A DNA stretch of 64,000 nt from an uncultured Christensenella sp. GTDB taxonomy: Bacteria > Bacillota > Clostridia > Christensenellales > UBA3700. A program made the position numbers and the translations under genes. Under the pieces are notes generated by a model that saw only the letters and a program-made list of their open reading frames with translations, was not told where the DNA came from and searched no databases. The stretch lies in the NCBI GenBank assembly GCA_910584635.1, contig CAJUBA010000003.1:10855-74854 (forward strand), in the 5' to 3' direction. Below, piece by piece: positions 26,338 to 51,276 of the stretch (position 1 is the stretch's first letter; every line of letters begins with the position of its first letter).

Positions 26338-29300
26338 TTAATTTGCAGCCTTTACGGTTTTACTCGAACCGAATTTATACGAGTATTCAAATCCATCGTA
26401 AATGAAGTTTACGATAAGATTGACTTTCTCGCCTACTTGTTCGCTAGTAAATGCGCCGTCTGTCAGCGCTATTTCAGGATTTCCGGTAGCCGTACTCTTA
26501 GCGACAACGCTTACTTCTATATCTTCGAATTTTTGTCCTGCAAACGTATCTGTAAGAACGTATTTTCCGTCTTTATAAGCGAGTTCCATAACGTGTTTTT
26601 CTCCGCTTTGCGTAGTAATCGTATATTTAGCCATACCGTCAAACGTCTTTCCTACTATCACGTCAGCAGACACAGAACCGAGTTCGTAAGGTTTCGCTGC
26701 GCTCAACGACACGTTTGTTTTAGAAATAGATTTTTCTTCTTCGTTCAAAGTGAACTTAACCGTAACGTCTATACTAGGAACCTGCGTGCCTTTCTTAGCG
26801 GAGTCGTAAGACATTGCTTTTAGAACGTCCCACGCAATCGTGTAATCGTCCGACAAAATATTTGTCTTTGTCGAGTCGCCTTTCTTTGACGCTGTAACCG
26901 TCGCTTGAATCTTAACAGTCGGATTCTCTACGCTGTCGACCATATAATACTTTCCGTCTATAAACGTCAGTACAAGAGTACGGGCGTCAGCATACTTATC
27001 GTCGTCTGCATTCCAATAGTAGTACGTCAACTTGCCGTCGAGATTTGCGCAAACGTTCGATGTTTTTCCCAAATCGCCAAACTCGCCGTGTTCCATTAAA
27101 AATTTTACAGTATCTTTAGTAGAGTTAGAGAGTTTTACCTTAGATAATACTTCGTCGTTTTCTCCGTACAGATACAGCCACAAATAAGAGGCAGACGAAT
27201 CTTTTGTAAAGGTAGTGCGGTCAAATTCGATTTTATAATCTTCAAACGATTTAGAAATCTCAAAACTCTTTGCTCCGTCAGAAGAAAGATCTATATCGCT
27301 AATCAATTGACCGTTTACAGTCGCTCTGTATTGATTTTCTTGAATGTACGTAGTGGAACCCGAGGAGTTTTGCAACAATAATTTCAATTTTGCTTTTTGT
27401 TCTGCGCCGTATATCTCAACTTTTATAGCGCCGTCTCCGCCGTCAACTAACGCCGGTTTACTTGGAGAAACCGTTTTCACGTTAACCGTTTTCATGACTT
27501 CGAAATCCAAATACTTGAATACAAATGAATATTCGTTTCCGTCATTGACAAGATATACTCCGTCTATCAAGTTATCGCTAGTTGCTACAATGCTAATTTC
27601 TCCTTTTGAGTCGTCTTGATAAGTTACTTTAATCTTTCCGCTCATATATTGGCTCATATCGATCTTTGCATCAGAATTCAATTCAATAGGAGCAAGTTCA
27701 AATGTCTCGGGGCATTCGTTATCAACTATTAGTTCCTCAATGCTGACGACTTTCATCAACTTAACGTCCAACTCCAATACATCTGCAGCCAAAGGTATAA
27801 CAGTATTGGCTAAAGCGCCGCCAACTGTTCCCGTAAAGACTTTGTCAAATAAGAAACCGCTGAACAATCCGCCCTGTCCGTCAAGCGGTAAAACTGCTAC
27901 CTTAATGGTCTGCATCTCTCCTATCTTGGTCGGGTCGTAGTCAATTATATCGACAATTTGAGTATGTGCCGTGTAAACGTTATTATCGAAAGCAGTGTAA
28001 GAATACTGTATACGCTTACCTATAAGTTTGTTGAGTTCTCCTTCGGTAAGTCTCAATTCACTGCTTCCCGAATAAATAATCTCATCGCCTTTAAGATTTG
28101 TTATATCTCCTACTACCTGCTTGTTAGCGTCTTCAATAGATAACGGCTTATGTCCGCCGAAATCGCGCGCTACGTTACTGTCGGTAGGAAGATTCATAAT
28201 CGCTTCCGCGCAATTGAAATCGCTCGCCGTACCTAGTTCAACGCTATTTACTCCTATTCTCATAGAACCGAATAAATTCTTCTCGTCGCTTACTTTATCG
28301 GGACTTAAAAGACCGTCAAATATACCTTTCGCCACGGTAGACGTAGTTATGTTTTTGAATGAACTGAGCGCGGACATTCCGGTTAATTCCGCCAAGTTTA
28401 TATTCAAATATTGGTCTAAATCAAACGCGGAGTTCAACAAAGCGTATGTTTCATTGAGATTAAGCGTAATGCCTGAATCCCCTACGCTTAGACATTTCGT
28501 AATAATAGAAAGTATCGGATCCAACATTGTGTTTATATCGAACTCAAACGGATCTTCAGGCGCGCTAGGTTCATCCGAACCGTCGCCGGCAAAACCGTCA
28601 ATCAACAAGCCTAAGTCTATTGACGTCATAAAGTTTTGACTTGCTATATTTGCTGGTCCGCCCAAAAGATTAAGCGCTATGCCGGCAATTATCTCTGAAA
28701 CAGAAGCGGCTTCCGCAACTGTTTTCTTAAGCGATGTTTCAGAAACAATTCTGCTCAAATTCAACGCAACGTAGAGTCTGCCGTTGCCGAAGTTTGCGGG
28801 ATCGAAAGCAATATCGAGAATTGACGTATCAGTTTGACCGCCTTTTCTAGTCGGACACATTGCGTCCGTACAGATTACACCTTGCTCTCCCGGAGTATGT
28901 TCATGGTAAATAGAGAAATACAATTTCATCTTCTTTACGGCTTCGTCGTTCATCCAGTTGTTGGGGTTAGACTTAATAGCGTTTACAAGCGCAAACGGAT
29001 CGATATCCGCTACCAACTTATAAGTCAAATGCTCGTAATCTTTACCCGTTCTATCCAAAAGGTCGATATTTCCCGTTACGGAAATATTAGCAAGATTGAT
29101 TTCGCTTGCAGATTGGATTTTATCCTCGTCGAGTTTTCCGCTTACGTAATCGTAAGAACCGCCCGCTATTTCGAAAGCGCCGAGAGAAGCGTTGCCGTCG
29201 TTAACGGTAATGTTGGCAAAAGCATTGTCGGAATCGGAAAGATCGACGGCAAACTTGAATTGCATTTCATTCTGTTCAAAGAATTCGCCGAGTATTTCGA

Positions 29301-30147
29301 GATTTTCGTCAGAAATCATCGTAAGGAAATTCTTAACCATATCGGAATTTACGATTTCCCATATATGAGAAATATCGATAGTTATTTCATATACTCCGTC
29401 GTTGCATACGATATCGTCTGCGTCGCGGAAAAGTATTACCGGCAAAAGATCGATTAAACCGCTCAAATCCGCGCCTGCGGTAGCCTGCGGAGCGTTGACG
29501 CTTGTCAAGATAGAAGTCAAATCGCTGTTTTTAATCTTAAAGATTTGATCTCCTACTTCCAAATACATAGTATTATCTTGATAGTACAATCCGATGTTAT
29601 TGCCGTCAGCCGAAACTATAGCGTGGAAAAGCGTAGAATTGTTTTGAGTTTGGCTCAAATCAATGTTACCCATTACGTCGATTGCGTAAGAAGTGGTTTT
29701 TCCGCTGTTCTTGACGCTTGCCGCCGCTTGAATATTGACTTTGAATTTCTCCTTACCTTCGAGCGCGAACGCTTTGCTCATGCCGTCGGTAAAGTCCTCC
29801 CATAGTTCAAAAGTAGATTTTGCGGGCGCGTCAACTATTTTGAGAGTAATTTTCTTAGACGTCGCTTTATAATTTTCCGTTTCGTCTGCAGAAACCGTTA
29901 TCTCGTATTCGCCCTTGTCGGCATATCCCTGAGCGGGATCGTATTTTAATTGAGTTTCATCGTGATTGAGCGAAGCGACTACATTATGTACTTGACCGTC
30001 GTAAATGTATGTCTGCTCGGTTTGCGCTATGATATAAGCGTCGCTTTTTTCAGGTTCGGGATCTTTACAACTTACCATAAAGATACTCGTCGACAAAACG
30101 ACCAACACCAACAACGCGCACAACCACGCCAGTTTGTTACGTTTCAT
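26338..30147 (-). CDS. Giant surface lipoprotein (1269 aa), paralog of 30451-33498 and 3651-5846
   Basis: Signal peptide plus lipobox IFMVSC, with AAGGAGG before the ATG. It shares with its neighbour the block C..C..TSILDIAFDPANFGNGRLYVALN (versus AILDIAFSPQDFGSYNIYISVG). Confidence 0.8.
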   Translation of the reverse strand: MKRNKLAWLCALLVLVVLSTSIFMVSCKDPEPEKSDAYIIAQTEQTYIYDGQVHNVVASLNHDETQLKYDPAQGYADKGEYEITVSADETENYKATSKKITLKIVDAPAKSTFELWEDFTDGMSKAFALEGKEKFKVNIQAAASVKNSGKTTSYAIDVMGNIDLSQTQNNSTLFHAIVSADGNNIGLYYQDNTMYLEVGDQIFKIKNSDLTSILTSVNAPQATAGADLSGLIDLLPVILFRDADDIVCNDGVYEITIDISHIWEIVNSDMVKNFLTMISDENLEILGEFFEQNEMQFKFAVDLSDSDNAFANITVNDGNASLGAFEIAGGSYDYVSGKLDEDKIQSASEINLANISVTGNIDLLDRTGKDYEHLTYKLVADIDPFALVNAIKSNPNNWMNDEAVKKMKLYFSIYHEHTPGEQGVICTDAMCPTRKGGQTDTSILDIAFDPANFGNGRLYVALNLSRIVSETSLKKTVAEAASVSEIIAGIALNLLGGPANIASQNFMTSIDLGLLIDGFAGDGSDEPSAPEDPFEFDINTMLDPILSIITKCLSVGDSGITLNLNETYALLNSAFDLDQYLNINLAELTGMSALSSFKNITTSTVAKGIFDGLLSPDKVSDEKNLFGSMRIGVNSVELGTASDFNCAEAIMNLPTDSNVARDFGGHKPLSIEDANKQVVGDITNLKGDEIIYSGSSELRLTEGELNKLIGKRIQYSYTAFDNNVYTAHTQIVDIIDYDPTKIGEMQTIKVAVLPLDGQGGLFSGFLFDKVFTGTVGGALANTVIPLAADVLELDVKLMKVVSIEELIVDNECPETFELAPIELNSDAKIDMSQYMSGKIKVTYQDDSKGEISIVATSDNLIDGVYLVNDGNEYSFVFKYLDFEVMKTVNVKTVSPSKPALVDGGDGAIKVEIYGAEQKAKLKLLLQNSSGSTTYIQENQYRATVNGQLISDIDLSSDGAKSFEISKSFEDYKIEFDRTTFTKDSSASYLWLYLYGENDEVLSKVKLSNSTKDTVKFLMEHGEFGDLGKTSNVCANLDGKLTYYYWNADDDKYADARTLVLTFIDGKYYMVDSVENPTVKIQATVTASKKGDSTKTNILSDDYTIAWDVLKAMSYDSAKKGTQVPSIDVTVKFTLNEEEKSISKTNVSLSAAKPYELGSVSADVIVGKTFDGMAKYTITTQSGEKHVMELAYKDGKYVLTDTFAGQKFEDIEVSVVAKSTATGNPEIALTDGAFTSEQVGEKVNLIVNFIYDGFEYSYKFGSSKTVKAAN

Positions 30148-30400
30148 AATTTGCCTCCTTGTGAGTTTTTATTTTATCTCACTATCATTTTGTGGAGGCA
30201 TACTGAATTCTAACTGAATTTTTGTTTATTTTCAAAAAAATTTTACAAATATTTTTTATTGATTGGGAAATTTCAGATATTTCGACTTCGCTTTCGCTAC
30301 GCTCAATATGACGGATAAATAAGCGAAAGTTTGTATTCCATACCGTCATCTGAGCCTAGTCGAAGACTCTAATCAAAATAAATATTTTATTTAGTCCGAC

Positions 30401-30437
30401 TAAAATAAAAGAGCAGCGCAGAATTTACATTTGCTCT
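30401..30437 (-). terminator. Weak terminator candidate after the 1015-aa lipoprotein gene
   Basis: AGAGCA..16-nt loop..TGCTCT followed (minus sense) by TTTTATTTT. The stem is only 6 bp. Confidence 0.3.
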
Positions 30438-30450
30438 GAAAATTTTAGAA

Positions 30451-33400
30451 TCATCGTAGCGCGTTCCGCGCTTGCACCTTTATCGAACAAGTTGAACTTC
30501 CAAGCGTAATTCTCATTTCATAATATCCGCTTTGGATAAAACTGACTTTTAATCTTAACGATATACTTTTATATATTGTAGGCGGAAGCGACACGGTGTA
30601 CGGCAACTCAATATTTTTATTATCCAACAATACGCTTTGTACTTGATAATAATTTTGAGGGTCGTCTACGAGTTTGTACGAAATTGAACCCAAAGAATTG
30701 ATATACCCTACCCTTATCTGCATATTCAATTGCAAATCGCGCCCTTCTTCGCCGTGGTACGTGTTGACAATCTCCGCGTCGAAATTATACACGTATCCTA
30801 CAAAGTAATCTGCCGACGGAACTGTCTTATTAACCAAAGCGTATTCGCTTTTGCTTACCTCTTGCGATTTTGGCGATATAAACAGAATTGTTTCCGCATA
30901 GAGTCCGTCGCACTCATACGAAAGAATATACTTCCCTTCACGTCTAAATACCACACTCGTTGAAGAAAGCGTAGGATTTATATAAAAATATTCGTTGGAT
31001 TGCGACAATGTATAGCCGTTAATCTTGGCGTTACTCAACGGCAGGCGCGCTTCGCTGACGCTTCCGTCCGCCATTATCCACTTCATAGTCGCTACGCGCA
31101 ATTCCGAATTATAGCCGTTTTCGTTTAATTCCAAATTCAGTTCGTCCAAACTAATATTCAGGCTTTTCTCTCTTGCCGGCGTAATCGACGCTTTCACTCC
31201 GCAATATCTTCCGAACAAATAGAAATTCATTACGATATCTTCTTCGCTTCCTACGTATTTATTACCGATATAATCGTAGACAAACATCTCGTCTGCGTTT
31301 GTCGCCGCTACGCTCCTATTCTTTACTTTTCCGTTTTTATATGAAATCTCCGCCCTTATTCTGTCAATCGACCTTGTGTCCGACGCCGATATTTTTTCGC
31401 CTTGCATAAATGCCACGTTTTCAGGACGTATGAACTTAACGGAATCGAGTTCGTCAATCCTTACGTAAGTCTTGACGGTCATACTCAGCCACTTACCCCA
31501 CTCTTGCGCTCTTATCGCTTCCCAAAGCATATTTTCTATATTCCCTCTTCCGACAGGTATGCAGTAAAGTTCTATCTCTTGCCATCCCGATTGCAAAACG
31601 TCAATTTCCGAATAACCAGTTATATAAAGTTCGCAATCAAACTTATCTCCGTAAATATCCTCAGCCTGCGCTTTTACATAAGAACCGATTATGTCTTGCG
31701 TTTCCGTCGCGCATATTGGCGTTTGAGCGTCAAACAGTACTCCGTTTTGATACAAATCGTTGTAAATGCCTACTACTGTTTTTTCTCCGTCGTCCGCGAT
31801 TATCTTTTCTCCTTTGTAATCATAGTTGAGCGCGGGAGTTTTGTTCATCAAACCCATAGTATACTGTTTAGTACCCTCTACGTCGTAACCGTAAAGATGT
31901 ATTGCGCTTCGTTTGACGTCATATCTCTGTACGCTCCATCTCAAATGAGTCTGCTCTAATTCCGCGGTATCCGCAAAGTAACCGTCGCCTTTGAAAATAC
32001 TCATGATTTTGCCGACGGTGTTTTCGTCGAGTCCTGCTATTTCAAGCATCCTATCTATCGGGAAAGAGAGCGACGAACCGTCGTATATCAACGACATCAG
32101 TATTTCTTCCAAAAACGTTCTTCCGCCCGAATCTTCCTCGCCGTCGCGTCCGCCCGAATAAGCGAAAGTCTGTCTTGACAAAGTATCTGCGGAAATTACC
32201 GCAAGAAGATATTCGGGAATCTGATTTCTTAAAATCCTTTCCAGCCCCGTCCACTGTGAAACAATTCTGCTACCCAAAAATGCTCGCGCTCCGACGCTGA
32301 TATAAATATTATAACTACCGAAATCTTGCGGAGAAAACGCTATATCCAATATTGCGCCTTTGGCTTTGTCATACTTATCGGCGCAAAATGCTCCGCAATC
32401 GGCGTCGCATTTATGAGATAGTCTGAAATGGAAAAAGTTGTCGCTTGCAAGCGCGTTGAAATCGCCTTGCGCCGCAAGCAAATCTAAAATGTCTACCTTC
32501 GCTTTGAATTCGTATTCGAACTGCATTACGCTCTTGCCGTCTGCGCTGTTTTTCAATTTAACAGTTCCGCCGCAAGTTACGTCGGTAAGTCTTCCGTTGA
32601 TATAAAGCGAATCGTCGGGTTGAAAACGCGATAAATCCAAAGAATCGTTTTCCACTCTGAACTTTGGGACGTTTACGTTAAGCGTACGCTCCGCGCCGTT
32701 TCTTGAATCGAAATATTTTAATTGCTCGCAATATATCCTATCTATTAAACCGTCTTTGAGATCTATGTTAATCTTACCTTTAAGAGAAGGAGTTTCCGAG
32801 AGCATATCTTCATAGTTCTCGACTTTTGATACGGTAAAGAATAACTTTTGCAATACTTCGGGCAGACCGAAGAACGCGTCTCTTGAAAACGTAGAGTCCA
32901 ATCCTTTTTTCAAATCAAAATCAAATGTAAACTTCGTTCCCTCTTTATCGTTAACGGTTGCGTCGGTAAAAAACACTTCCGCCATAGCCTCAAACAGCGC
33001 GCCGGGAGTGGTATAATCTACGCCGTCGCCGAGCAGTCCTACCGCCTGGATTACAGTGTAAATCAACGGCGCATGCTCAAACGATACTCTTTCATATTCG
33101 CCTGCGTCCTCGTTCCATAAACACCAATATAGCATCTCGTCCGAATTATAAACGTCGAGAAGTATCTTTTTCTCCTCGCCCCGTATTCGCGTTATTCGCA
33201 ACGCCCCCGCCTGTCCGGTTCTTTGTCCGACATTCAAATTCAAAGCGAGAGAACATTCGTACTTATCGCCCGAACTTTCTTCGACCGCCTCTAAATCTAA
33301 TTCAAACGCAATTTGTCTTTTAGTGGAAATATTTATATAATGTCTGTCAATCGCCGATGATATTTCGCCGATATAATCCTGCCACGGCTTCAGCGGCAAT

Positions 33401-33498
33401 TCCTCTTTATTTTTATACGAGCCGTCGCAAGCGCCAAAAACGGCGCAAGTAAGCAAAACAAGCAGCGCAATAAAAATAAGAAATCGTCTGCTTCGCAT
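30451..33498 (-). CDS. Giant surface lipoprotein (1015 aa), paralog family member; last gene translationally linked to the kinase
   Basis: Signal peptide plus lipobox AVFGAC. GGAGG lies inside the last codons of the kinase gene, 4 nt between stop and ATG. Confidence 0.8.
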   Translation of the reverse strand: MRSRRFLIFIALLVLLTCAVFGACDGSYKNKEELPLKPWQDYIGEISSAIDRHYINISTKRQIAFELDLEAVEESSGDKYECSLALNLNVGQRTGQAGALRITRIRGEEKKILLDVYNSDEMLYWCLWNEDAGEYERVSFEHAPLIYTVIQAVGLLGDGVDYTTPGALFEAMAEVFFTDATVNDKEGTKFTFDFDLKKGLDSTFSRDAFFGLPEVLQKLFFTVSKVENYEDMLSETPSLKGKINIDLKDGLIDRIYCEQLKYFDSRNGAERTLNVNVPKFRVENDSLDLSRFQPDDSLYINGRLTDVTCGGTVKLKNSADGKSVMQFEYEFKAKVDILDLLAAQGDFNALASDNFFHFRLSHKCDADCGAFCADKYDKAKGAILDIAFSPQDFGSYNIYISVGARAFLGSRIVSQWTGLERILRNQIPEYLLAVISADTLSRQTFAYSGGRDGEEDSGGRTFLEEILMSLIYDGSSLSFPIDRMLEIAGLDENTVGKIMSIFKGDGYFADTAELEQTHLRWSVQRYDVKRSAIHLYGYDVEGTKQYTMGLMNKTPALNYDYKGEKIIADDGEKTVVGIYNDLYQNGVLFDAQTPICATETQDIIGSYVKAQAEDIYGDKFDCELYITGYSEIDVLQSGWQEIELYCIPVGRGNIENMLWEAIRAQEWGKWLSMTVKTYVRIDELDSVKFIRPENVAFMQGEKISASDTRSIDRIRAEISYKNGKVKNRSVAATNADEMFVYDYIGNKYVGSEEDIVMNFYLFGRYCGVKASITPAREKSLNISLDELNLELNENGYNSELRVATMKWIMADGSVSEARLPLSNAKINGYTLSQSNEYFYINPTLSSTSVVFRREGKYILSYECDGLYAETILFISPKSQEVSKSEYALVNKTVPSADYFVGYVYNFDAEIVNTYHGEEGRDLQLNMQIRVGYINSLGSISYKLVDDPQNYYQVQSVLLDNKNIELPYTVSLPPTIYKSISLRLKVSFIQSGYYEMRITLGSSTCSIKVQARNALR

Positions 33499-33501: not shown

Positions 33502-34737
33502 TTACCTCCGCTCTGGTAAAATAGCCGTAACCACTATGCCTTGCGGTATATTGTGAGTGGCGTAAATCTTTCCGCCTACTTCTTCTACAATAGTTTTGGC
33601 AATAGCAAGTCCCAATCCGCTGCCCTGCTGATTCTTGGCGTTTTCACTTCTGTAAAACCTGTCGAAAATCTTTTCCTCTTCTCCGTCGGCGATACCTATA
33701 CCCGTATCCGCTACGCTGAGCGCGTAAGCGTTGTCAATCTTCTTCAAAGATACTTTTATTTTATCTCCGTCGCGAGTATACTTGACGGCGTTTTCAAGAA
33801 GAATTATCAACAACTGCTTTAATTTTTCCCCATCCATATTTACCGAAGCGGAGCGAACGTTCGCCAACAGAGTACGGTTGGATTCTCCGATTATTTCGCT
33901 GTAAATTTCCAATACGTCGGACACTATCTCGCCCGCATCGGAGTTGTCCTTTTCCTTTTTAACGGAAGGCGTGGATACGCTTCTCATAAGATCCTGCGAC
34001 AGCGCGTTTATATGTTCGGCTTCCTGTATCGTATTTTCAAGAAGATCGCTTACCTGACTGACCGAGCAATCGGGCGACGCTAAAATATTTTCCATATTGC
34101 CGCGAATTACCGTAAGCGGAGTGCGTATCTCGTGAGTCATTTCATGAATGAAATCTTTTTGCTGTTTTATCGCTCGCACTACAGGACGTCCCATAAGAAA
34201 CGCAAAAGCCGTATATATGCCCATAATCAATATGAACGCCACGGGGAAAAACCATATAAAATTCCCCAAAGAATCATAAACTCTCAGCAAGTCGGCATTC
34301 ATAAGAAGTTTGATATATACGCCTTCGCTGTATACGAAAGTATAAGTTTTGTAAGAATAATCTCCTATTTTTTCGGTAATAGTCTTATCGAACGTATCGG
34401 GCAATTCCGTCTTATGTTCGGCAAGATAAGAATTGGCTGTATAATACCCCGCCGTGCTGTCCGCGCGACGACGGTATATAATAACGTCTATATTTTCTCT
34501 GTATAAGATAGCGTTGTTTTCTCCGCCGTCCTCTACCAGTTCTTCAACCGAAGAAATCGGAGTGTCTTTGAGCAATTCGGCGTATTTCTTCATTTCCTTT
34601 TGCGCGCTTACCGTTCCGCTGTTCATAGCCTGATACACAATACCTATGCCTAAAACGAGCAACACAGCAAAAGTAACGAGTCCCGCTATCCACGCTCTTT
34701 GTTGCCAACTTTTTGTGGTAATTATTTGCTTGCTCAT
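33502..34737 (-). CDS. Sensor histidine kinase (two TM segments, HisKA, HATPase_c)
   Basis: H-box HEMTHEIRTPLTVI, N-box LLENAVKYT, G-boxes DTGIGI and GSGLGLAI. Start set at the ATG at 34737 (MSKQIITTK), overlapping the regulator stop as TAATG. Confidence 0.88.
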   Translation of the reverse strand: MSKQIITTKSWQQRAWIAGLVTFAVLLVLGIGIVYQAMNSGTVSAQKEMKKYAELLKDTPISSVEELVEDGGENNAILYRENIDVIIYRRRADSTAGYYTANSYLAEHKTELPDTFDKTITEKIGDYSYKTYTFVYSEGVYIKLLMNADLLRVYDSLGNFIWFFPVAFILIMGIYTAFAFLMGRPVVRAIKQQKDFIHEMTHEIRTPLTVIRGNMENILASPDCSVSQVSDLLENTIQEAEHINALSQDLMRSVSTPSVKKEKDNSDAGEIVSDVLEIYSEIIGESNRTLLANVRSASVNMDGEKLKQLLIILLENAVKYTRDGDKIKVSLKKIDNAYALSVADTGIGIADGEEEKIFDRFYRSENAKNQQGSGLGLAIAKTIVEEVGGKIYATHNIPQGIVVTAILPERR

Positions 34738-35435
34738 TACTTCTCCTCCGACGGCTCCGAATTGAGATAATTTTCCGTCCAACGGTAACCTACCGTTTTT
34801 ATAGTCTGTAAACAATCGTTCATGCCTATCTCTGTCAAAATCTTGCGGAGTCTGTAAACGTATACTTCTATTACCGATTGAATAGTTTCGCTGTAAAATC
34901 CGCATACGCTGTCAAACAACTGCTGTTTGGTAACCGTGATTTCTTTATTCTTGACAAGCGTTTCCAATACGTCGTACATTTTACCGTTAATAGGCAAAGT
35001 CTTTTCTTTGAACTTGACCATTTTGCTTTTATAATCTATACTCAAATCGCCGAGTTTGTATCTCAACGCGCCGAAATCTCTGTGATACCTGCGCATTGTA
35101 GCCTGAACTCTCGCCAATAATTCCTCTCTCGAAAAGGGCTTGACCATATAATCGTCCGCGCCGAGATTGAGAAATTCTACTTTTCTTTCAAGCATGCCGA
35201 TAGCGGACAAAATGATTATCGGAGTAAGTTTATGTCTGCGCGCGCCGCGCAAAACCTCTTCGCCGTTCATTTTAGGCAACATAATATCCAAAATCACTAT
35301 GTCGTATTCTTCGGTAAGAATCTTGTTTAATCCGCTCTCCCCGTCGTATACCGCTTCCGTTTCGGCGATACTCCCGAGCATACGGCGCAGCGCGTCGGAC
35401 AACGGCTTGTCGTCCTCTATTATCAACGCTCTCAT
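34737..35435 (-). CDS. OmpR-family response regulator
   Basis: MRALIIEDDKPL..DIVILDIMLPKMNG..K (receiver Asp/Lys) and the winged-helix ..VYVYRLRKIL..IKTVGYRW. AAAGGAGAGGG precedes the ATG at 35435. Confidence 0.9.
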   Translation of the reverse strand: MRALIIEDDKPLSDALRRMLGSIAETEAVYDGESGLNKILTEEYDIVILDIMLPKMNGEEVLRGARRHKLTPIIILSAIGMLERKVEFLNLGADDYMVKPFSREELLARVQATMRRYHRDFGALRYKLGDLSIDYKSKMVKFKEKTLPINGKMYDVLETLVKNKEITVTKQQLFDSVCGFYSETIQSVIEVYVYRLRKILTEIGMNDCLQTIKTVGYRWTENYLNSEPSEEK

Positions 35436-35620
35436 TCCCTCTCCTTTGTTGCTTTTCGCTCCCAAATCGTGAATATAAATTTTATTATACTTTATTTATG
35501 CGCGCTCGTAACTATTTATATCAATAGTATATTTCAATTGTGCTATAATTAACATATATCGCATAAAATCAATATCGCGTCTTCCTATATCATATCAATT
35601 CAAGCATTAAAATTACGCTA

Positions 35621-35763
35621 GGTCAGTAAAGGTGTACATTTCTTGACCGTAATAATTTTCCCATATTTTACTATTTTTTACTATATTTCTACATAATAAG
35701 TATACAATAAAGACTTGTCGAATTCAAGATATTTAAGTCAGGAAATGTACACTTTTCTTGTAA
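35621..35763. promoter_or_regulatory. Candidate invertible promoter switch A (as assembled, the promoter faces the regulator/kinase/lipoprotein operon)
   Basis: Site a1 GGTCAGTAAA-GGTGTACA-TTTCTTGACC (35621-35648) and site a2 AGTCAGGAAA-TGTACACT-TTTCTTGTAA (35736-35763) are inverted relative to each other. They flank 87 bp containing a promoter. A homologous cassette lies at 44573-44715. Confidence 0.65.
35699..35727 (-). promoter_or_regulatory. Promoter TTGAAT-17-TATACT inside switch A, reading toward the response-regulator gene
   Basis: On the minus strand, TTGAAT (35727-35722), 17 nt, TATACT (35704-35699). Confidence 0.55.
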
Positions 35764-35819: not shown

Positions 35820-35850
35820 GGAAAAACGGGCAAGCCGCAGCCTGCCCGTT
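35820..35850 (-). terminator. Rho-independent terminator after the GH36 gene
   Basis: Minus sense AACGGGCA-ggctgcggct-TGCCCGTT followed by TTTTC. Confidence 0.75.
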
Positions 35851-39654: not shown

Positions 39655-42600
39655 CTAACTCTTCCTCATGGAGCGTTGCTCTTTGATATAATCGCTGTAA
39701 CGTTCAATTTGGTCTTCACGTAGGTCTATCATCTCCTTCGCCGTCGCCAACGCTTGACTGTCTCCTACTATCAATTCCGTTTCCTTTACCTTTACTTTCG
39801 TTCCTTCGCTTCCCGCGTTCCTTCTGATGTCCTTCATATACTCGTCTTCCATCTTAAATAACGCTACTGTACAATCTTTCTTTATCGTCAGTTTTACCAA
39901 CGGATTTACAGATGACTGTCCCAGTAAGATATAGTACGTGGATTTCTTCTCCTTACACTTATCTTTACTCATTGCGTATTCTTTCAACGTATCAAAGAAC
40001 TTCTTTTGTTTTGCGGATAGTTTTGCGTACGCTTCGTCAAGAGTCAGTCTTGGAGCAACTGTCTTGGCTTTTGTCGTCGGCTTTTCCACAGGCAACGGTA
40101 CCGTCTTTTCTACAATCTTCTCTACCTCTTCCGGCACTTCGACCTTGACTTCTTTTACTACCTCTTTTTCTATTATCTTTTCCACAGGTACTTCCACTAT
40201 TTTTTCAATCGGCTTTTCTACTATCTTCTCTACTAATTTCTCCGTTTGTTGATTTGCCGTCAATTCCTGTATCTGTTTTATCAGCATCTCTTGATTCTTC
40301 AACAGTTGCTTTATTGTTTCGTCGTTTGTTACCGTCGCCGCTACTTCTTTCTCTATCACTCTTTCTACTTGCTGTTGCTTGCTTAATTTCTCTACTAATT
40401 TTTCTATTACCTCTTCGCTTACTCCTTCCTTCTCTTTCGATTGTTCAGAAATTTTTTGCATCATTATTTCATTCGCTTGCATTAGTCGGTCGAGTTTTTC
40501 TTCATTTTCACTGTATTGCGCCTGTTGCGGCAAGTACTGCTGCACGTTCGGCAACATTGCAGATACCGCGTCGTTTATCATACAGCGCATATCTTCCATT
40601 CCAACCGCCGGCTGTCCGCTATATCCGTAATTCTGTCCTTGCATATTATTGTTACCTCCAATCATACGCATTAACATCATCTTGTTGTATTCCTCTTTTG
40701 CCTCGTCTACTTCTTCTTCTATTTTTCCATAACGTTTTTTCTCTACTAGCATAAAGATTAGCGACAATACCGCTACGCCCATCAACACGCCCGCTATTAT
40801 CGTCCAGTTGGTCATACTCCAGCCAAACAAACCTATTCCGCTCATAGCGTAAAAAGTCCGGTATCTCTTCTCTATTAACTGCTTTGACTTCTTACACTTA
40901 TTCGCAAAACTTATTCCCTTCGCCGTAAACATCAAGATTAAGACTATGCTTACTCCGCTCGCTATTACCTGCCACCATTCTTTCAATATATCCAACACTT
41001 TATCGAAATCAACTGTTTGCGTCGGCTCTTTCGGGTCGTTTGTAGAATTGTTGTTATCCTCGCTCGGATAATACGGATTGTTCGGATCGTCCGGGTCAAA
41101 TATCTCTTCGTTCTCTTTTACTTCAAACTCTACCCACTCCGTCTCCGTACTTCCGTCTGCAAATATATAGTTGGTCTTATCCGTTATCACTGCTCGCACT
41201 TCATACTTGTTTCCGGGTTTCAAGTCCTTGAACTCCAATATGTTTCCGTCTATATCTCTGTATTCGTGCTTTATCCCCTTTATCTCGCTTGCGCTTACGC
41301 TCAACGACGGTGGATTGTGTTTTGTATTCCATACGTCGTTCTTTATCTCCATCCGCTTTATCTCATACTCTATTATCGCGACTCCGTCTACTACGTTCTC
41401 TCCGCTTAGGTAGTATCCTTCTACTCCTTCCTTTATCCTTATCTCTACTCTGTACTTTCCTACCTTCGTCGGCGCTTCTGCCAATGCCGTTGTTCCGTCT
41501 TTGTCGTAATACTCTATTTCAAAGTCGCTTTCGCTTAACGCTCCTTCTATCTTCAATTTAACATCTTGACTCTTTCCGTTGTACGTTAGTTCCGTCTTGC
41601 TTAGCGTTACTCCTATTCCCGTCGCGTTCTCTCCTACGCTAAACGGCGACGACAGTACGTTCTCTTTATCAAACTCTACGTCGTTTGCGTACATACTCTT
41701 TATTACCGCTTTCGTTACGTAGTATCTTACTTCGTTCTCTACTATCTCTATCTCGCTTTCGCTTAACGCTTCTCCTACTATCTCTTTCTTTGCATTATCC
41801 CATAAGTAATACTCGTACTCTACTACGTTCTTATCCTCTTTCAGTTTCTGTCTGTCATACTTCCCTTCGTAATTCTCGCTTTCCCATTCTACCTTTATTA
41901 CCAACTTCTCTATTGTCCAATTCATCTCCCATGAGAAGTCTTCGCTTCCGTTATAGGTATAGTTGTTTCCTTTTCCTCCTACTTGCGGCAGTTCGTAATT
42001 CTGTTCGTATCCGCTTTCCAATATAAACGTTACGCTTACGTTTCCGCTATCTCCTGCGTGCGCTCCCTCTCTTACTCCAGTATATCTTTCTACGCTCAAT
42101 CCTTCGGGCAAAGTCTTCTCGTCTATCTTCGCTTTCATTTCAGATACGTTGGTACTAAACGGTATCTTACCGTCATATTCCCACTTAACACCGGACAAGT
42201 CGAACTTAGCCTTGTCTATCGTCCACTCGATTGAGTACTCTTTTACGTTCGTAGGATTAGCCGTTTCTTTAAGTTTTATTGTTGTCTTATACTTTCCCGC
42301 ATTCTTTACCGTTTCTAACGCTTCTTCGCCGGAATCAGTCATGAGTACCGTTCTTATTCCATACTCTTCGTCTATCTCGTATCCGGTAGGCGCGCTGACC
42401 GTAAACGTATACGCTTTATCTTTGCTATATACTAACGCTTTATCCAGTTTTACTTCATACTGTCCTATCTCAGCGTCTTTTATCTGACCGCTTGGTTTTC
42501 CGTTAGCGTTTAATTTCCATCTCAACGTCGACTCGCTTCCTTCGTCTTTGACGTCCAAAGTAGCGGTCGGATCTATTTTTATCTCGTAATTTCCGTTTGT

Positions 42601-44553
42601 CGTCGTCGCTTTCAAATTATATTTAGTCGTTTCCAACAATGCGGTATCAAACGTAACCGTCTGAATATCCGCGCTTGCGTCTTCGTTGTTTATTAACTTG
42701 ATTTCGCCTGTTATCTCCGTATCTGGCAAATCTTTAGCCGTCGCGACAATCTTTATAGCAACTTCGTCGTCGTTTCTCGGTCTTTTGTCGCTTTGGGCGT
42801 TTAATTCCAAATTAAACTTTTTGCTGCTTCCTTTAATCGCCGTGAGACCTCCGCCTTCTCCGTTTAGGTCGCTTAAAGATATATAGACTTGCGCTTTGGT
42901 AATCTCAAATTCCAACTTGTCTTTTGCGTTTTTCCACATACAGTTTTTAGTATCTTTTAATTCCACCGTCAAAGCGTACTTGCCTACGTTTTTTTCGCTT
43001 ACTTGCTTTGTAGACGAACTGATTTCCGCGCCTTTATAACTTATCTTCACGTATTCCGCGTCATAGACAAGTCTGAAAGTTACGTTATCCCCGCCATTAT
43101 AAGTCTTTTGCGAAATTGCGTTGTAAAACGAAGGATAATCTACTTCTTTCTGAACGACGGTAAACTTTACCTTTTTCTCATCGCTATCCTCGCCTACTTG
43201 CCAATAATACTCCGACTTTGGCGTTACCCCTACATAGTATTCGCCTACGTCTTTGGGATTTGTCGAGAGAGGATTCAATGATTTGTCGTAAAACTTTACC
43301 GTTACCGATTGCGAATATTCTTGCGTATACCATTTCTCTCCCTGCAAATCAAGTTCCTTGCCCGCGTAACTTTTGACAACGTCTTGCGGAGCAGACAAGC
43401 CCTTTGTAGAATACTTATCCGCTTCCGTCAAATTAAAATGGAATGCAGGTCTTACTAAATGCGTATCGCTCGTTACTGTGTCCCAATACGATTCTCCGTT
43501 TTCAGTCAAAATCCACGCATGTATGCCGGTAGAGGTTGCGCCTGTTCTTGACCATATTCCCGAATCGTTTATTCTTAATTGACCGGGCATACCCCAAATA
43601 CCGGTCGCGGTATTTCCGTAACCCGTTTCGCAAAGTCCGGGAATCCAAAGATAGTCGTATTGCCAGTCGTAATATTGAGCGACTCTGTCCTGCACCTCGT
43701 ACGTTGTCGTAACGCCCCAATTATTTTCCACTTTAGCGCACGCGTCATTCAAAGCATTTTTTGCGCTGCCTCCGCTAAATAGGTTCCACGACTCCGTCTT
43801 CTGATAACCCACGTTCGTAGGCTTTACGATAAATTTCGTAATATTGCCTTTATAATTTTTATCAGTGAACAGAGAATAATTGTAATCGGGATCGGGATCT
43901 ATTACTTTCAATCCTGATTGCAGAGCGGTAGAATTGTAGTATATATCGACGGTGTTTCCATCCCGATCTTCTCCTTTGCCGTTGAGCAATTTGGATCTTA
44001 TATAACTTGTGCTGTAAACGCTCGTCGGATAATCAATTGATAAAGACGCATCTTTCCAAGTATGCCACAGCGAAGTATCTATCGGATTTTTTAACATCAG
44101 AGTTGCTATAACGTTGCCGTTATCGTCCAAAGTCAACGACGTAACGTACCATTCCATATTGCCTAGAATTACGCTTGTAAAACTTTCAGAGTCGTTTAAC
44201 GCGTAAATTTCCGTGGCGGTCTTTCCCGTTTTCAAACCTAAACCTGTGGTATCCGACGATTTTTCAGACGCTACGATTTTTACCGCTTCATAATCCGCGC
44301 CTTCCTGCCCGGTCAATTTGGAATAAAACTTGGTCATTTCCCTTCCGTCAAAAACCTTTTTGGTCATTTCCGCGTCGGAAGAAGAGAGCATCAATTCCGA
44401 CATTACGGTATCCGATACCGTTTGAATTTTAATATCTTCCCTAATGTTTAATTTATAAAAATCCGAAACAAACAAAGCGCTGAAAATATACAGCGTTAAA
44501 AGTACCGCTAATAATGTAAATACCAACTTGGCTTTTTTCTTTATTCTATTCAT
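39655..44553 (-). CDS. 1632-aa membrane-spanning surface protein: N-terminal anchor, DUF6273-like domain, Ig-like/MBG-like repeat array, 2-3 TM segments, ~430-aa cytoplasmic tail with E/K/V/I repeats
   Basis: N-terminal hydrophobic anchor. ..WSRTGATS..HLVRPAFHFNL is DUF6273-like. There are many ~90-aa beta-rich repeats (..YNGKSQDVKL.., ..YTYNGSEDF..), TM stretches WWQVIASGVSIVLILMF and WTIIAGVLMGVAVLSLIFMLV, then the EKIVEKPIEKIVEVPVEKIIEKEVVKEVKVEVPEEVEKIVEK repeats. Confidence 0.8.
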   Translation of the reverse strand: MNRIKKKAKLVFTLLAVLLTLYIFSALFVSDFYKLNIREDIKIQTVSDTVMSELMLSSSDAEMTKKVFDGREMTKFYSKLTGQEGADYEAVKIVASEKSSDTTGLGLKTGKTATEIYALNDSESFTSVILGNMEWYVTSLTLDDNGNVIATLMLKNPIDTSLWHTWKDASLSIDYPTSVYSTSYIRSKLLNGKGEDRDGNTVDIYYNSTALQSGLKVIDPDPDYNYSLFTDKNYKGNITKFIVKPTNVGYQKTESWNLFSGGSAKNALNDACAKVENNWGVTTTYEVQDRVAQYYDWQYDYLWIPGLCETGYGNTATGIWGMPGQLRINDSGIWSRTGATSTGIHAWILTENGESYWDTVTSDTHLVRPAFHFNLTEADKYSTKGLSAPQDVVKSYAGKELDLQGEKWYTQEYSQSVTVKFYDKSLNPLSTNPKDVGEYYVGVTPKSEYYWQVGEDSDEKKVKFTVVQKEVDYPSFYNAISQKTYNGGDNVTFRLVYDAEYVKISYKGAEISSSTKQVSEKNVGKYALTVELKDTKNCMWKNAKDKLEFEITKAQVYISLSDLNGEGGGLTAIKGSSKKFNLELNAQSDKRPRNDDEVAIKIVATAKDLPDTEITGEIKLINNEDASADIQTVTFDTALLETTKYNLKATTTNGNYEIKIDPTATLDVKDEGSESTLRWKLNANGKPSGQIKDAEIGQYEVKLDKALVYSKDKAYTFTVSAPTGYEIDEEYGIRTVLMTDSGEEALETVKNAGKYKTTIKLKETANPTNVKEYSIEWTIDKAKFDLSGVKWEYDGKIPFSTNVSEMKAKIDEKTLPEGLSVERYTGVREGAHAGDSGNVSVTFILESGYEQNYELPQVGGKGNNYTYNGSEDFSWEMNWTIEKLVIKVEWESENYEGKYDRQKLKEDKNVVEYEYYLWDNAKKEIVGEALSESEIEIVENEVRYYVTKAVIKSMYANDVEFDKENVLSSPFSVGENATGIGVTLSKTELTYNGKSQDVKLKIEGALSESDFEIEYYDKDGTTALAEAPTKVGKYRVEIRIKEGVEGYYLSGENVVDGVAIIEYEIKRMEIKNDVWNTKHNPPSLSVSASEIKGIKHEYRDIDGNILEFKDLKPGNKYEVRAVITDKTNYIFADGSTETEWVEFEVKENEEIFDPDDPNNPYYPSEDNNNSTNDPKEPTQTVDFDKVLDILKEWWQVIASGVSIVLILMFTAKGISFANKCKKSKQLIEKRYRTFYAMSGIGLFGWSMTNWTIIAGVLMGVAVLSLIFMLVEKKRYGKIEEEVDEAKEEYNKMMLMRMIGGNNNMQGQNYGYSGQPAVGMEDMRCMINDAVSAMLPNVQQYLPQQAQYSENEEKLDRLMQANEIMMQKISEQSKEKEGVSEEVIEKLVEKLSKQQQVERVIEKEVAATVTNDETIKQLLKNQEMLIKQIQELTANQQTEKLVEKIVEKPIEKIVEVPVEKIIEKEVVKEVKVEVPEEVEKIVEKTVPLPVEKPTTKAKTVAPRLTLDEAYAKLSAKQKKFFDTLKEYAMSKDKCKEKKSTYYILLGQSSVNPLVKLTIKKDCTVALFKMEDEYMKDIRRNAGSEGTKVKVKETELIVGDSQALATAKEMIDLREDQIERYSDYIKEQRSMRKS

Positions 44554-44572: not shown

Positions 44573-44715
44573 GGTCAGTAAAAGTGTACTTTTACTGACC
44601 GCGAGATATTGCCAAATGAAATTCATTATTGTATACTTATAGTGAAAAAATGCTCGTTTTTTTGAGTATTACAGCGTAAAATTTATTGGTCAGGAAATGT
44701 ACACTTTTTTTGGAA
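44573..44715. promoter_or_regulatory. Candidate invertible promoter switch B (as assembled, the promoter faces away from the 1632-aa gene)
   Basis: Site b1 GGTCAGTAAA-AGTGTACT-TTTACTGACC (44573-44600; 13-bp arms perfect) and site b2 GGTCAGGAAA-TGTACACT-TTTTTTGGAA (44688-44715) are inverted. They flank 87 bp homologous to the inner segment of switch A, but in the opposite orientation. Confidence 0.65.
44609..44637 (+). promoter_or_regulatory. Promoter TTGCCA-17-TATACT inside switch B, reading away from the 1632-aa gene
   Basis: TTGCCA at 44609-44614, 17 nt, TATACT at 44632-44637. The -10 context TTATTGTATACTTAT is identical to the minus-strand sequence of switch A. Confidence 0.55.
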
Positions 44716-51274: not shown

Positions 51275-51276
51275 GA

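What the first reader, a model, noticed from the sequence alone, without database searches (positions are those of the whole stretch)
35621..35763. Candidate invertible promoter (switch A, ON as assembled) in front of a two-component system and two giant lipoproteins
Seen in the sequence. Two 28-bp sites with an arm / 8-bp spacer / arm layout sit in inverted orientation: a1 GGTCAGTAAA-GGTGTACA-TTTCTTGACC and a2 AGTCAGGAAA-TGTACACT-TTTCTTGTAA. GTGTACATTTCTTGAC in a1 matches the reverse complement of GTCAGGAAATGTACAC in a2 at 15 of 16 positions. They bracket exactly 87 bp containing the promoter TTGAAT-17-TATACT, which points at the response regulator gene (ATG at 35435). A second cassette at 44573-44715 has the same site architecture, the same 87-bp spacing and a homologous inner segment. 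That inner segment is flipped, while the outer half-sites keep their orientation. This is what site-specific inversion produces and what simple duplication does not. Palindromic arms around an asymmetric 8-bp core resemble tyrosine-recombinase core sites (loxP/FRT logic). Precedents are the RecV-flipped cwpV and flagellar switches of Clostridioides difficile and the Bacteroides invertons. Placing a whole sensor kinase / regulator pair under a phase switch is unusual.
Basis: partly seen in the sequence, partly recalled or inferred. Interest (0 to 1): 0.85.

Follow-up and report, generated by a model that had tools for sequence, protein, structure and literature searches.

The report
Invertible promoter family, serine invertase
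The two cassettes belong to a large family of about 120-bp flip-flop promoters in uncultured mouse-gut Clostridia that turn giant surface-protein genes on and off, probably through a small serine DNA invertase; this is a new example of a well-known bacterial strategy, and the flagged copy (switch A) has never been seen flipped.

Summary
Both cassettes have two sites 115 bp apart centre to centre, an 87-bp interior, and a sigma-70 promoter at the same offset. The promoter is mirrored between A and B.

The same architecture occurs 47 times in four related Clostridia MAGs and nowhere else among 185,579 species genomes. It almost always sits in front of 1000-2000-aa paralogues of the window's 1632-aa protein, and 35 of 42 unique copies are OFF.

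Inversion is real. Switch B is flipped in 2 of 10 other assemblies with identical flanks. One family member was assembled in both orientations in a single sample.

The enzyme is probably a roughly 200-aa Sin/Hin-type serine recombinase, not a tyrosine recombinase. Its gene lies 97-100 bp from the distal site of one inverton in three of the four MAGs. It is not in the window.

Switch A is a true family member placed in front of a two-component system and two probable lipoproteins. It is ON in all about 15 assemblies, including a sister species. It also has a unique half-site substitution and lacks the family's interior hairpin, so it may be biased or locked ON.

A phase-variable two-component system already has a precedent (cmrRST). 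This is a new member of a known kind and moderately interesting.

The parts
35621..35648 (.). Switch A, gene-proximal recombination site a1. It is a near-palindrome, GGTCAGTAAA-G-GTGTAC-A-TTTCTTGACC, with core GTGTAC at 35632-35637.
   Evidence: It matches the family proximal consensus GTCAGGAAAA-GTACAC-TTTTCCTGACCG. The inner half-site reads GTCAAG, whereas all 45 other aligned family members have GTCAG.
35649..35735 (-). Switch A invertible interior (87 bp). It carries the promoter: -35 TTGAAT at 35722-35727 and -10 TATACT at 35699-35704, minus strand. As assembled it points at the response-regulator gene (ON).
   Evidence: for the promoter scan. The -35 box is at the family-invariant offset of 25 nt from the start of the core. 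It is the only family member whose promoter-distal half has no hairpin (MFE 0).
35736..35763 (.). Switch A, gene-distal site a2, AGTCAGGAAA-T-GTACAC-T-TTTCTTGTAA, with core GTACAC at 35747-35752. The outer half is the degenerate A/T-tract type.
   Evidence: Its outer half ATTACAAGAAAA compares with the family distal consensus ATTCCAAAAAAA.
35831..35848 (-). Terminator-like hairpin plus T-run downstream of the GH gene. It would insulate switch A from upstream transcription.
34737..35435 (-). OmpR-type response regulator (232 aa), the first gene behind switch A. Its 185-nt leader contains TTGATAT repeats.
   Evidence: Pfam Response_reg 7.6e-23 and Trans_reg_C 1.7e-14. Gene call in L001.
33502..34737 (-). 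Sensor histidine kinase (411 aa).
   Evidence: HisKA and HATPase_c.
26338..33498 (-). Two large probable lipoproteins, 1015 aa (30451-33498) and 1269 aa (26338-30147). A terminator follows at 26274..26249, so this is the end of the switch-A operon.
   Evidence: No Pfam hits. Signal peptides end in ...FGAC and ...MVSC. Terminator. No homologues behind other invertons.
44573..44600 (.). Switch B, gene-proximal site b1. It is a perfect 13-2-13 palindrome, GGTCAGTAAAAGT-GT-ACTTTTACTGACC, with core GTGTAC at 44584-44589. It lies 20 nt upstream of the 1632-aa ORF start.
44601..44687 (+). Switch B invertible interior (87 bp). Promoter: -35 TTGCCA at 44609-44614 and -10 TATACT at 44632-44637, plus strand. 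As assembled it points away from the 1632-aa gene (OFF).
   Evidence: The interior is inverted in L015 and L016 with 198-200/200 identical flanks.
44688..44715 (.). Switch B, gene-distal site b2, GGTCAGGAAA-T-GTACAC-T-TTTTTTGGAA, with core GTACAC at 44699-44704.
   Evidence: It matches the distal consensus ...GTACAC-TTTTTTTGGAAT.
39655..44553 (-). 1632-aa giant membrane-anchored protein, the canonical cargo of the inverton family. It has an N-terminal TM or signal segment, an ectodomain of about 1170 aa, two TM helices at 1196-1266, and a coiled-coil plus conserved C-terminal domain.
   Evidence: It is 25-57% identical to the ORFs downstream of nearly every inverton in the four MAGs. TM profile. 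Only weak adhesin-type domains were found: MBG_3, and Flg_new and DUF6273 in paralogues.

Best explanation
**What the cassettes are.** Switch A (35621-35763) and switch B (44573-44715) belong to a lineage-specific family of about 146-bp invertible promoter cassettes. Each cassette has three elements:
- a gene-proximal, nearly palindromic 28-bp site, GGTCAG(G/T)AAA-n-GTGTAC-n-TTTnCTGACC;
- an 85-88-bp interior with a sigma-70 promoter at a fixed offset;
- a gene-distal site whose inner half is a good half-site and whose outer half is a conserved A/T tract (ATTCCAAAAAAA).

**How they work.** A site-specific recombinase exchanges strands inside the shared core (mapped here to AAAAGTGTAC) of the two inverted sites. 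This flips the interior, so the promoter reads either into the downstream gene (ON) or away from it (OFF).

**The enzyme (inferred).** It is most likely a small (about 200 aa) Sin/Hin-type serine recombinase. In related genomes its gene lies 97-100 bp beyond the distal site of one inverton. It would act in trans on 10-17 or more invertons per genome.

**Cargo and purpose.** The usual cargo is a paralogous family of 1000-2000-aa membrane-anchored surface proteins. The system therefore gives combinatorial phase or antigenic variation of the cell surface, with most copies OFF at any time.
- Switch B is a canonical copy. It is OFF in the window.
- Switch A is the same cassette recruited in front of a response regulator / histidine kinase / two-lipoprotein operon. 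It is ON.

**Shown.** The architecture, the family, the promoter consensus, inversion of B and of paralogues in nature, and the linkage to the serine recombinase gene.

**Inferred.** Promoter activity, the identity of the enzyme, and whether A itself still flips (about even odds).
For: **Architecture and promoter.**

**Family.**
- One pattern scan of 185,579 species genomes returned 47 cassettes, all in four 'Clostridia bacterium' MAGs.
- Core-to-core length is 120-122 nt.
- The -35 box is at offset 25 in every copy.
- The proximal palindrome always faces a giant ORF that starts 25-70 nt away.
- 35 of 42 unique copies are OFF and 7 are ON.

**Inversion in nature.**
- The switch B interior is reverse-complemented in L015 and L016 relative to the window and eight other assemblies. 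Flanks are 198-200/200 identical.
- Inner-arm SNPs travel with the segment (L012 against L016). This confines the crossover to AAAAGTGTAC.
- L040 and L057 are contigs from one sample. They share both flanks (38/38 and 39/39 nt) and have exactly inverted interiors.
- The invertase-adjacent inverton of P0007 is flipped in L074 relative to seven other assemblies.
- 17 of 47 invertons lie within 61 nt of a contig end.

**Enzyme.**
- Four orthologous PF00239 proteins (E 1e-26 to 2e-29, 75-93% identical to one another) are the only recombinases found in 265 kb of flanks. Each lies 97-100 bp from a distal site.
- The same linkage holds for homologues P0005, P0002, P0007 and P0106 in other bacteria. 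Their half-sites or cores have co-varied with the enzyme.
- The closest solved structures are Sin (2r0q, E 4e-30), gamma-delta resolvase and Gin.
- The catalytic motifs YARVSS and DRLGR are present.
- The site is a 13-2-13 dyad.
- Flipped B occurs in strains that lack the window's mobile element and its large serine recombinase (L015 and L016 have PPDK there).

**Switch A as a family member.**
- It keeps the full architecture.
- The sister-species orthologue has both cores changed together to GTATAC.
Against: - No read-level data were available, so all orientation evidence comes from consensus assemblies.
- Switch A was ON in every assembly examined: about 13 from one study plus 2 of a sister species.
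- The proximal inner half-site of A carries a substitution (GTCAAG) that no other family member has. The sister-species orthologue has two different substitutions in the same half-site. A is also the only copy without the interior hairpin.
- No invertase orthologue is in the 64-kb window. I could not show that one exists in this species' genome.
- In one of the four MAGs (JAIEDA01) no invertase fell within the fetched flanks.
- Promoter activity is only a consensus match.
- The serine-versus-tyrosine assignment rests on gene linkage and site symmetry, not on biochemistry. The tyrosine-recombinase search used only three seeds.
Confidence: 0.75

Rival explanations
1. Switch A is a fossil. It descends from the inverton family but is now locked, or almost locked, in the ON orientation. 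It simply serves as the fixed promoter of the two-component-system / lipoprotein operon. Only switch B and the other copies still flip.
For: - A is ON in all about 13 assemblies of the strain and in both assemblies of a sister species. B is flipped in 2 of 11.
- The proximal inner half-site has a G-to-A change at a position that does not vary in 45 other copies.
- The sister orthologue has independent changes in the same half-site (AGTCGGGATAA).
- A and its orthologue lack the interior hairpin that almost all other copies have.
- A more distant relative runs the same operon from a fixed promoter, so constitutive expression is viable.
Against: - The two cores are still identical (6/6), the inner arms match at 9/11, and the spacing is the canonical 121 nt.
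- In the sister species both cores changed together from GTGTAC to GTATAC. This is hard to explain without continued recombination or selection for matching cores.
- Consensus assemblies report only the majority orientation, and nearly all A-bearing assemblies come from one study.
Confidence: 0.45
2. The sites are tyrosine-recombinase core sites, with palindromic arms around an asymmetric 6-8-bp overlap as in loxP, FRT or RecV targets. A tyrosine recombinase encoded elsewhere flips them.
For: - The arm/8-bp spacer/arm reading fits the sequence.
- The mapped crossover interval (10 bp) is compatible with a 6-8-bp overlap.
- The best-studied Clostridia switches use the tyrosine recombinase RecV (PMC6837544), and hCom2 Clostridia inverton group 139 is linked to a tyrosine recombinase (PMC11892184).
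Against: - No tyrosine recombinase was detected in 265 kb of flanks or in the window (Pfam summaries).
- A conserved serine recombinase gene sits at a fixed distance from an inverton in several lineages, and the site sequences co-vary with it.
- Some lineages have a fully palindromic 6-bp core (GTATAC; L082 and L110). For a tyrosine recombinase this would remove most of the site polarity.
- The 8-bp spacers of partner sites are not identical in the window (a1 GGTGTACA against reverse-complemented a2 AGTGTACA).
Confidence: 0.1
3. One of the recombinases of the mobile element in the window is the invertase: the 589-aa large serine recombinase (48145-49914) or the 137-aa resolvase-like ORF (51277-51738).
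For: They are the only recombinase genes within the 64-kb window. They lie 3.5-7 kb from switch B.
Against: - The element is strain-specific. L012-L020 have PPDK or another gene in its place, yet L015 and L016 carry flipped B.
- The four MAGs with 9-17 invertons each show no homologue of either protein in the flanks.
- The neighbouring genes (Fic, SNF2 helicase, C5 methylase) indicate an integrative element.
Confidence: 0.03
4. There is no switch. The cassettes are a dispersed repeat or duplicated promoter module, and the mirrored interiors of A and B are an accident of divergence or of assembly.
For: The A and B interiors are only 41/87 identical when flipped.
Against: - Orthologous loci have identical flanks and exactly reverse-complemented interiors in independent assemblies.
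- The architecture is invariant across 47 copies.
Confidence: 0.02

Closest known systems
Bacteroides fragilis Mpi (Ssr2) and the capsular-polysaccharide promoter invertons
   Same: - One small serine recombinase acts in trans on many (7-13) short promoter-containing segments scattered round the genome.
- This produces combinatorial ON/OFF states of surface structures in a gut commensal, with most loci biased (PMC10403206, which cites Coyne 2003).
- This is the closest functional analogue.
   Different: - Different phylum.
- Unrelated inverted-repeat sequence.
- The interior is 87 bp, against roughly 170-230 bp in Bacteroides (from my own knowledge).
- The cargo is single giant membrane proteins, not polysaccharide operons.
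- The site pair is asymmetric (full palindrome proximal, half-degenerate A-tract distal).
- The invertase lies where the OFF-state promoter of its neighbouring inverton reads into it.
- No experimental data exist.
Hin/hix, Gin/gix and Cin/cix serine DNA invertases, and the Sin resolvase
   Same: - PF00239 catalytic domain with the YxRVSxxxQ and DRLGR motifs.
- Sequence homology to Sin (E 4e-30), gamma-delta resolvase and Gin.
- Crossover sites are two 12-13-bp half-sites around a 2-bp centre (b1 is a perfect 13-2-13 dyad).
- The recombinase gene lies next to the invertible segment.
   Different: - Hin and Gin invert 1-3-kb segments and need a Fis-bound enhancer (established knowledge). Here the sites are only 115 bp apart and no enhancer is known.
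- Sin is a resolvase.
- Whether cleavage is at the central dinucleotide is untested.
- Some sister lineages have a symmetric AT centre.
Clostridioides difficile RecV switches, especially cmrRST (Cdi6), cwpV and flgB
   Same: - Firmicutes/Clostridia.
- Several short invertible regulatory elements are served by one recombinase encoded elsewhere.
- cmrRST is a phase-variable signal-transduction system with OmpR-type regulators (PMC6837544, PMC8844915). It is a direct precedent for switch A's cargo.
   Different: - RecV is a tyrosine recombinase.
- The C. difficile inverted repeats differ from one another and from these sites.
- C. difficile has about 7-8 switches, not 10-17 near-identical ones.
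- Its elements are longer (about 150-300 bp, from my own knowledge).
E. coli fimS with FimB/FimE
   Same: A promoter inversion controls a surface structure. Recombinase expression depends on switch orientation (orientational control of fimE, established knowledge). This resembles the inferred read-through from the OFF-state promoter into the invertase gene.
   Different: Tyrosine recombinases, a single 314-bp switch, and a different coupling mechanism.

Membership tests
Invertible promoter (inverton) phase switch | A short DNA segment bracketed by inverted repeats | tested here: met
   A has a 27-nt inverted repeat at 81% and B a 21-nt inverted repeat at 90%. Both have 87-bp interiors. The same holds in 47 further copies.
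Invertible promoter (inverton) phase switch | A promoter inside the segment that faces the adjacent gene in only one orientation | tested here: inconclusive
   A TTGnnn-17/18-TAnnnT consensus sits at an identical offset in every copy and is mirrored between A and B. No transcription data are available.
Invertible promoter (inverton) phase switch | Both orientations exist at the same locus in natural populations | tested here: met
   Met for switch B (L015 and L016 against eight others), for L040/L057 within one sample, and for L074. Not met for switch A itself: about 15 of 15 assemblies are ON.
Invertible promoter (inverton) phase switch | A cognate site-specific recombinase in the same genome | not testable with these tools
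   Only 64 kb of this genome is available and it has no orthologue. Related genomes have one beside an inverton.
Small serine recombinase (resolvase/invertase) system | A recombinase with the PF00239 catalytic domain and the nucleophilic serine motif | tested here: met
   L035, L053, L024 and L037 ORFs: PF00239 E 1e-26 to 2e-29. Motifs YARVSS(S/A)DQN and SIDRLGRN are present. Sin E 4e-30. These proteins are in related genomes, not in the window.
Small serine recombinase (resolvase/invertase) system | A crossover site made of two inverted 12-13-bp half-sites around a 2-bp centre | tested here: met
   b1 is a perfect 13-2-13 palindrome. The family consensus is GGTCAGGAAAAGT-AC-ACTTTTCCTGACC. The layout is also compatible with a tyrosine-type core, so it is not discriminating alone.
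Small serine recombinase (resolvase/invertase) system | Double-strand cleavage with a 2-bp stagger at the site centre, and dependence on the enzyme | not testable with these tools
   The crossover is only narrowed to the 10-bp interval AAAAGTGTAC, using SNPs that move with the segment.
Small serine recombinase (resolvase/invertase) system | An accessory enhancer or architectural protein, as for Hin/Gin (Fis) or Sin (HU/IHF) | not tested
   A conserved interior hairpin or palindrome and the fixed 114-116-bp phasing are candidate accessory features. Their role is unknown.
Tyrosine-recombinase switch (RecV / FimB / Cre-loxP logic) | A tyrosine recombinase gene linked to the system | tested here: not met
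   FimB, FimE and lambda Int seeds gave no hit with E < 0.9 in 265 kb of flanks plus the window. No Phage_integrase appeared in the Pfam results for the window or flanks. One encoded elsewhere in the genome cannot be excluded.
Tyrosine-recombinase switch (RecV / FimB / Cre-loxP logic) | An asymmetric 6-8-bp overlap region that is identical in the two partner sites | tested here: inconclusive
   The 6-bp GTGTAC is identical and asymmetric in the window. The 8-bp spacers differ between partners. Sister lineages use a palindromic GTATAC.

The most novel reading that the evidence does not exclude
**Proposed two-tier stochastic circuit.**
- The invertase sits where the OFF-state promoter of its neighbouring 'master' inverton reads straight into it. 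This geometry holds in 16 of 17 assemblies.
- Cells would therefore alternate between two states. In the switching-competent state invertase is high and all 10-17 surface-protein promoters are being reshuffled. In the frozen state the master inverton has flipped to its giant gene, invertase is low, and the surface pattern is locked.
- In the window's lineage the same invertase would also gate a two-component system (switch A). That would couple environmental sensing to the stochastic layer.

**Other unusual features.**
- The loop is extremely short and phase-fixed at 115 bp.
- The site pair is asymmetric.
- The interior hairpin is conserved.

Together these would then define a mechanistically distinct, enhancer-independent class of serine invertase.
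Probability: 0.2. Interest if true: 0.65.

Novelty: new member of a known kind. Interest (0 to 1): 0.48.

Why it matters
- **Reach of the strategy.** Uncultured mouse-gut Clostridia appear to use the same strategy as Bacteroides: one global serine invertase and many tiny promoter switches. Here it varies a family of giant surface proteins that have no annotated function.
- **Practical use.** The work yields a precise, searchable site grammar and a candidate enzyme.
- **Assembly.** It explains why these genomes assemble badly at these loci, since 17 of 47 copies lie at contig ends.
- **Recombinase diversity.** The recombinase family has thousands of close homologues in gut Firmicutes, and their target half-sites and cores appear to co-vary with the enzyme. 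This is potentially a rich source of orthogonal small invertases that work on about 115-bp substrates.
- **Switch A.** It shows a switch cassette captured by a regulatory operon, and possibly being lost again.

Tried and rejected
- **Flipped switch A in assemblies.** Two look-ups, anchored on the response regulator and on the GH protein, gave 20 loci from about 13 assemblies. All were ON.
- **Orthologues of switch A.** The sister species is ON. A more distant relative has no inverton.
- **JGI metagenome scans.** Two scans, one for A-type interiors and one for the general family pattern, found nothing. That collection seems to lack these organisms.
- **Exact-protein look-up of the 1632-aa ORF.** It is not on record.
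- **The window's large serine recombinase as invertase.** Searches seeded with it and with the 137-aa resolvase-like ORF found no homologue in the inverton flanks. Rejected as the invertase.
- **Tyrosine recombinase search.** Negative.
- **Rfam on 35300-45000.** Only two sub-threshold sRNA hits, elsewhere in the region. No known RNA family explains the cassettes or the 185-nt leader.
- **Literature searches.** Neither the site sequences nor serine-invertase invertons in Clostridia gave a description of this family.
- **Distal T-run as a terminator.** I considered that it blocks OFF-state read-through and rejected this. The T-run would pair with the inner arm rather than trail a hairpin.
- **Invertase in the window's own species.** I could not identify it.
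Full report
**1. The observation**

- In A, the promoter TTGAAT-17-TATACT is on the minus strand (35727..35699). It faces the response-regulator ATG at 35435.
- In B, TTGCCA-17-TATACT is on the plus strand (44609..44637). It faces away from the 1632-aa ORF that starts at 44553.
- In both cassettes the -35 box begins 8 nt inside the segment, at opposite ends. The cassettes are therefore mirror images inside constant outer half-sites.
- The motif GTCAGNAAANGTRYAC is strongly over-represented: 11 matches against 1.0 expected. The good matches are confined to these four sites.
- Interior similarity is modest but significantly better in the flipped register (score 15 against -2.6 +/- 4.9 for shuffles).
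- b1 is a perfect 13-2-13 palindrome. The sites can be read as two half-sites around a 2-bp centre as well as arm/8-bp spacer/arm.

**2. Gene context**

- Behind A, on the minus strand, lie an OmpR-type response regulator, a histidine kinase, a 1015-aa probable lipoprotein and a 1269-aa probable lipoprotein, followed by a terminator.
- A terminator-like hairpin upstream of A (35848..35831) separates it from two glycoside-hydrolase genes.
- Behind B lies a 1632-aa protein. It has an N-terminal TM or signal segment, an ectodomain of about 1170 aa, two TM helices and a coiled-coil/conserved C-terminal region. Only weak adhesin-type domain hits were found.
- The region 48-64 kb is a strain-specific mobile element. 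It carries a large serine recombinase, Fic, a 137-aa resolvase-like ORF, a 1937-aa SNF2 helicase protein and a C5 methylase.

**3. The family**

One scan of one genome per species (185,579 species) with GTGTACNTTTNYTGAC-N80-95-GTCAGNAAANGTACAC returned 47 cassettes. All were in four uncultured 'Clostridia bacterium' MAGs, with 9-17 per genome. They share a strict grammar:
- The gene-proximal site is GTCAGGAAAA-GTACAC-TTTTCCTGACCG, which is palindromic.
- The gene-distal site is AAATTCCAAAAAAA-GTGTAC-TTTTCCTGAC. Its outer half is a conserved A-tract rather than a half-site.
- Core-to-core length is 120-122 nt, so the site centres are 114-116 bp apart. That is about 11 helical turns.
- A TTGnnn-17/18-TAnnnT promoter has its -35 box exactly 25 nt from the start of the core.
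- The proximal site is followed within 25-70 nt by a 1000-2000-aa ORF. These ORFs are paralogues of the window's 1632-aa protein at 25-57% identity.

Of 42 unique copies, 35 are OFF and 7 are ON. Seventeen of the 47 lie within 61 nt of a contig end. The window's species is not one of the four MAGs, since DNA identity is only about 70-80%.

**4. Inversion happens**

- *Switch B across assemblies.* I anchored on the YbaK-like gene next to B and obtained ten further assemblies of this species. In L015 and L016 the B interior is reverse-complemented and the promoter faces the giant gene (ON). The 200-bp flanks on both sides are 198-200/200 identical.
- *Crossover position.* SNPs in the inner arms move with the segment (L012 against L016) and the outer halves stay put. 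This places the crossover inside AAAAGTGTAC.
- *Both orientations in one sample.* In one MAG from one sample, contigs L040 and L057 share both outer flanks (38/38 and 39/39 nt) and carry exactly inverted interiors.
- *A related inverton.* The inverton next to invertase P0007 is flipped in one of eight assemblies, and two contigs start inside its site.

**5. The enzyme**

- *Gene linkage.* A Pfam scan of 110 flank ORFs found four Resolvase-domain proteins. They are orthologues of about 200 aa, 75-93% identical to one another (L024, L035, L037, L053). Each start codon lies 97-100 bp from the GTGTAC core of a distal site, and each gene is transcribed away from the inverton.
- *Motifs and homology.* They carry the catalytic YARVSS and DRLGR motifs. 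Sin (E 4e-30), gamma-delta resolvase and Gin are the closest solved structures.
- *Negative search for tyrosine recombinases.* None was detectable in the 265 kb of flanks or in the window.
- *Wider homologues.* They number in the thousands. Where examined, they keep the same invertase / roughly 100 bp / mini-inverton / surface-protein layout, with altered cores (GTATAG, GTATAC) or half-sites (GTAGTAAAA). This suggests that enzyme and site have co-evolved.
- *The window's mobile element is not needed.* Flipped B occurs in strains without it.

I therefore favour a small serine invertase acting in trans, as Mpi does in Bacteroides fragilis (PMC10403206). This rests on linkage and site symmetry, not on biochemistry. 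No orthologue lies in the window.

**6. Switch A specifically**

*Family membership and origin.* A has the complete family grammar but an atypical cargo and an atypically long (185-nt) leader. A relative with an 82%-identical regulator has the same regulator / kinase / lipoprotein operon behind a fixed TTGACA-17-TATACT promoter, with no inverton. The cassette was therefore acquired by this operon.

*Signs of a locked or biased state.*
- A is ON in all 20 loci (about 13 assemblies) recovered for this strain, and in both assemblies of a sister species with a 91%-identical regulator.
- Its proximal inner half-site has a unique G-to-A change at an otherwise invariant position.
- The sister orthologue has different changes in the same half-site.
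- A and its orthologue are the only copies without the interior hairpin that the rest of the family conserves structurally. Mean z is -2.3, with 33 of 45 copies below -1.5.

*Signs of continued activity.*
- The cores are intact.
- The spacing is canonical.
- The sister orthologue changed both cores together to GTATAC.

I put the chance that A still flips at about one half. Consensus assemblies cannot settle this.

**7. Comparison and novelty**

- The system works like the Mpi regulon of Bacteroides and like Hin/Gin-type invertases.
- In cargo, switch A resembles the phase-variable cmrRST system of C. difficile (PMC6837544). A two-component system under a switch is therefore not new.
- The hCom2 inverton survey links its main Clostridia inverton group to tyrosine recombinases (PMC11892184). 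I found no description of this serine-linked, 87-bp, giant-protein family.
- It is a new member of a known kind. Its notable details are the very short, phase-fixed loop, the asymmetric site pair, the conserved hairpin, and an invertase gene positioned to be read from the OFF-state promoter of its neighbouring inverton.

**8. Verdict**

The inversion interpretation is right for the family and for B, unproven for A, and probably wrong about the recombinase class. Interest is moderate.

Noticed in passing
window 44601-44687, compared with L012-L020: Between strains the 200-bp flanks of switch B are 198-200/200 identical, but the 87-bp interior is only 74-76/87 identical. The window and L011 carry one allele and the other nine assemblies carry another. 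This suggests that interiors are exchanged or converted between paralogous invertons.
   Followed up: partly
interiors of 45 family members; window 35649-35698 is the exception: The promoter-distal half of the invertible segment forms a hairpin in nearly every copy (mean z -2.3). The stem sequences differ between subfamilies. Switch A (MFE 0) and its sister-species orthologue lack it. Its role is unknown: it could be an RNA 5' stem-loop or a protein-binding palindrome needed for recombination.
   Followed up: partly
L024, L035, L037, L053, L072-L083, L096-L099: The invertase gene always lies beyond the distal site and is transcribed outward. The OFF-state promoter of the neighbouring inverton therefore reads into it. 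This orientation is seen in 16 of 17 assemblies. It may couple invertase expression to the orientation of the switch.
   Followed up: partly
window 48145-64000: A strain-specific mobile element. It carries a 589-aa large serine recombinase, Fic (50314-51222), a 137-aa resolvase-like ORF (51277-51738), a 1937-aa SNF2/helicase protein (51849-57662), a DUF3848 protein and a C5 DNA methylase (62852-63970). Other strains have a PPDK gene at this junction.
   Followed up: partly
window 39655-44553; L012 and L014-L020: In eight of ten assemblies the contig ends 2.4-3.1 kb into the giant gene. The exact 1632-aa protein is not on record. This suggests a hypervariable or repeated central region.
   Followed up: no
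L098:4680-4900: In another bacterium, with invertase P0106 and a Big_2 surface protein, one assembly has a tandem double cassette: three sites and two promoter-bearing interiors. Three other assemblies have the single one.
   Followed up: no
L029:5029-5173: One family member has distal-type (A-tract) outer halves at both ends. This may be the product of recombination between two different invertons.
   Followed up: no
window 35436-35620 (minus strand): The 185-nt leader between switch A and the regulator gene contains several TTGATAT/GATAT direct repeats and a weak promoter-like site (35598..35571). It could be an autoregulatory or second promoter region, as in cmrRST.
   Followed up: no
L068 against L069 (orthologous to window roughly 5-10 kb): There is a second strain-variable island. 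L069 carries another large serine recombinase (563 aa) and a 797-aa ORF where L068 has GH16 and Mrr-like genes. The window ORF 9175-9591 has weak similarity to the large serine recombinase (E 3e-4).
   Followed up: no
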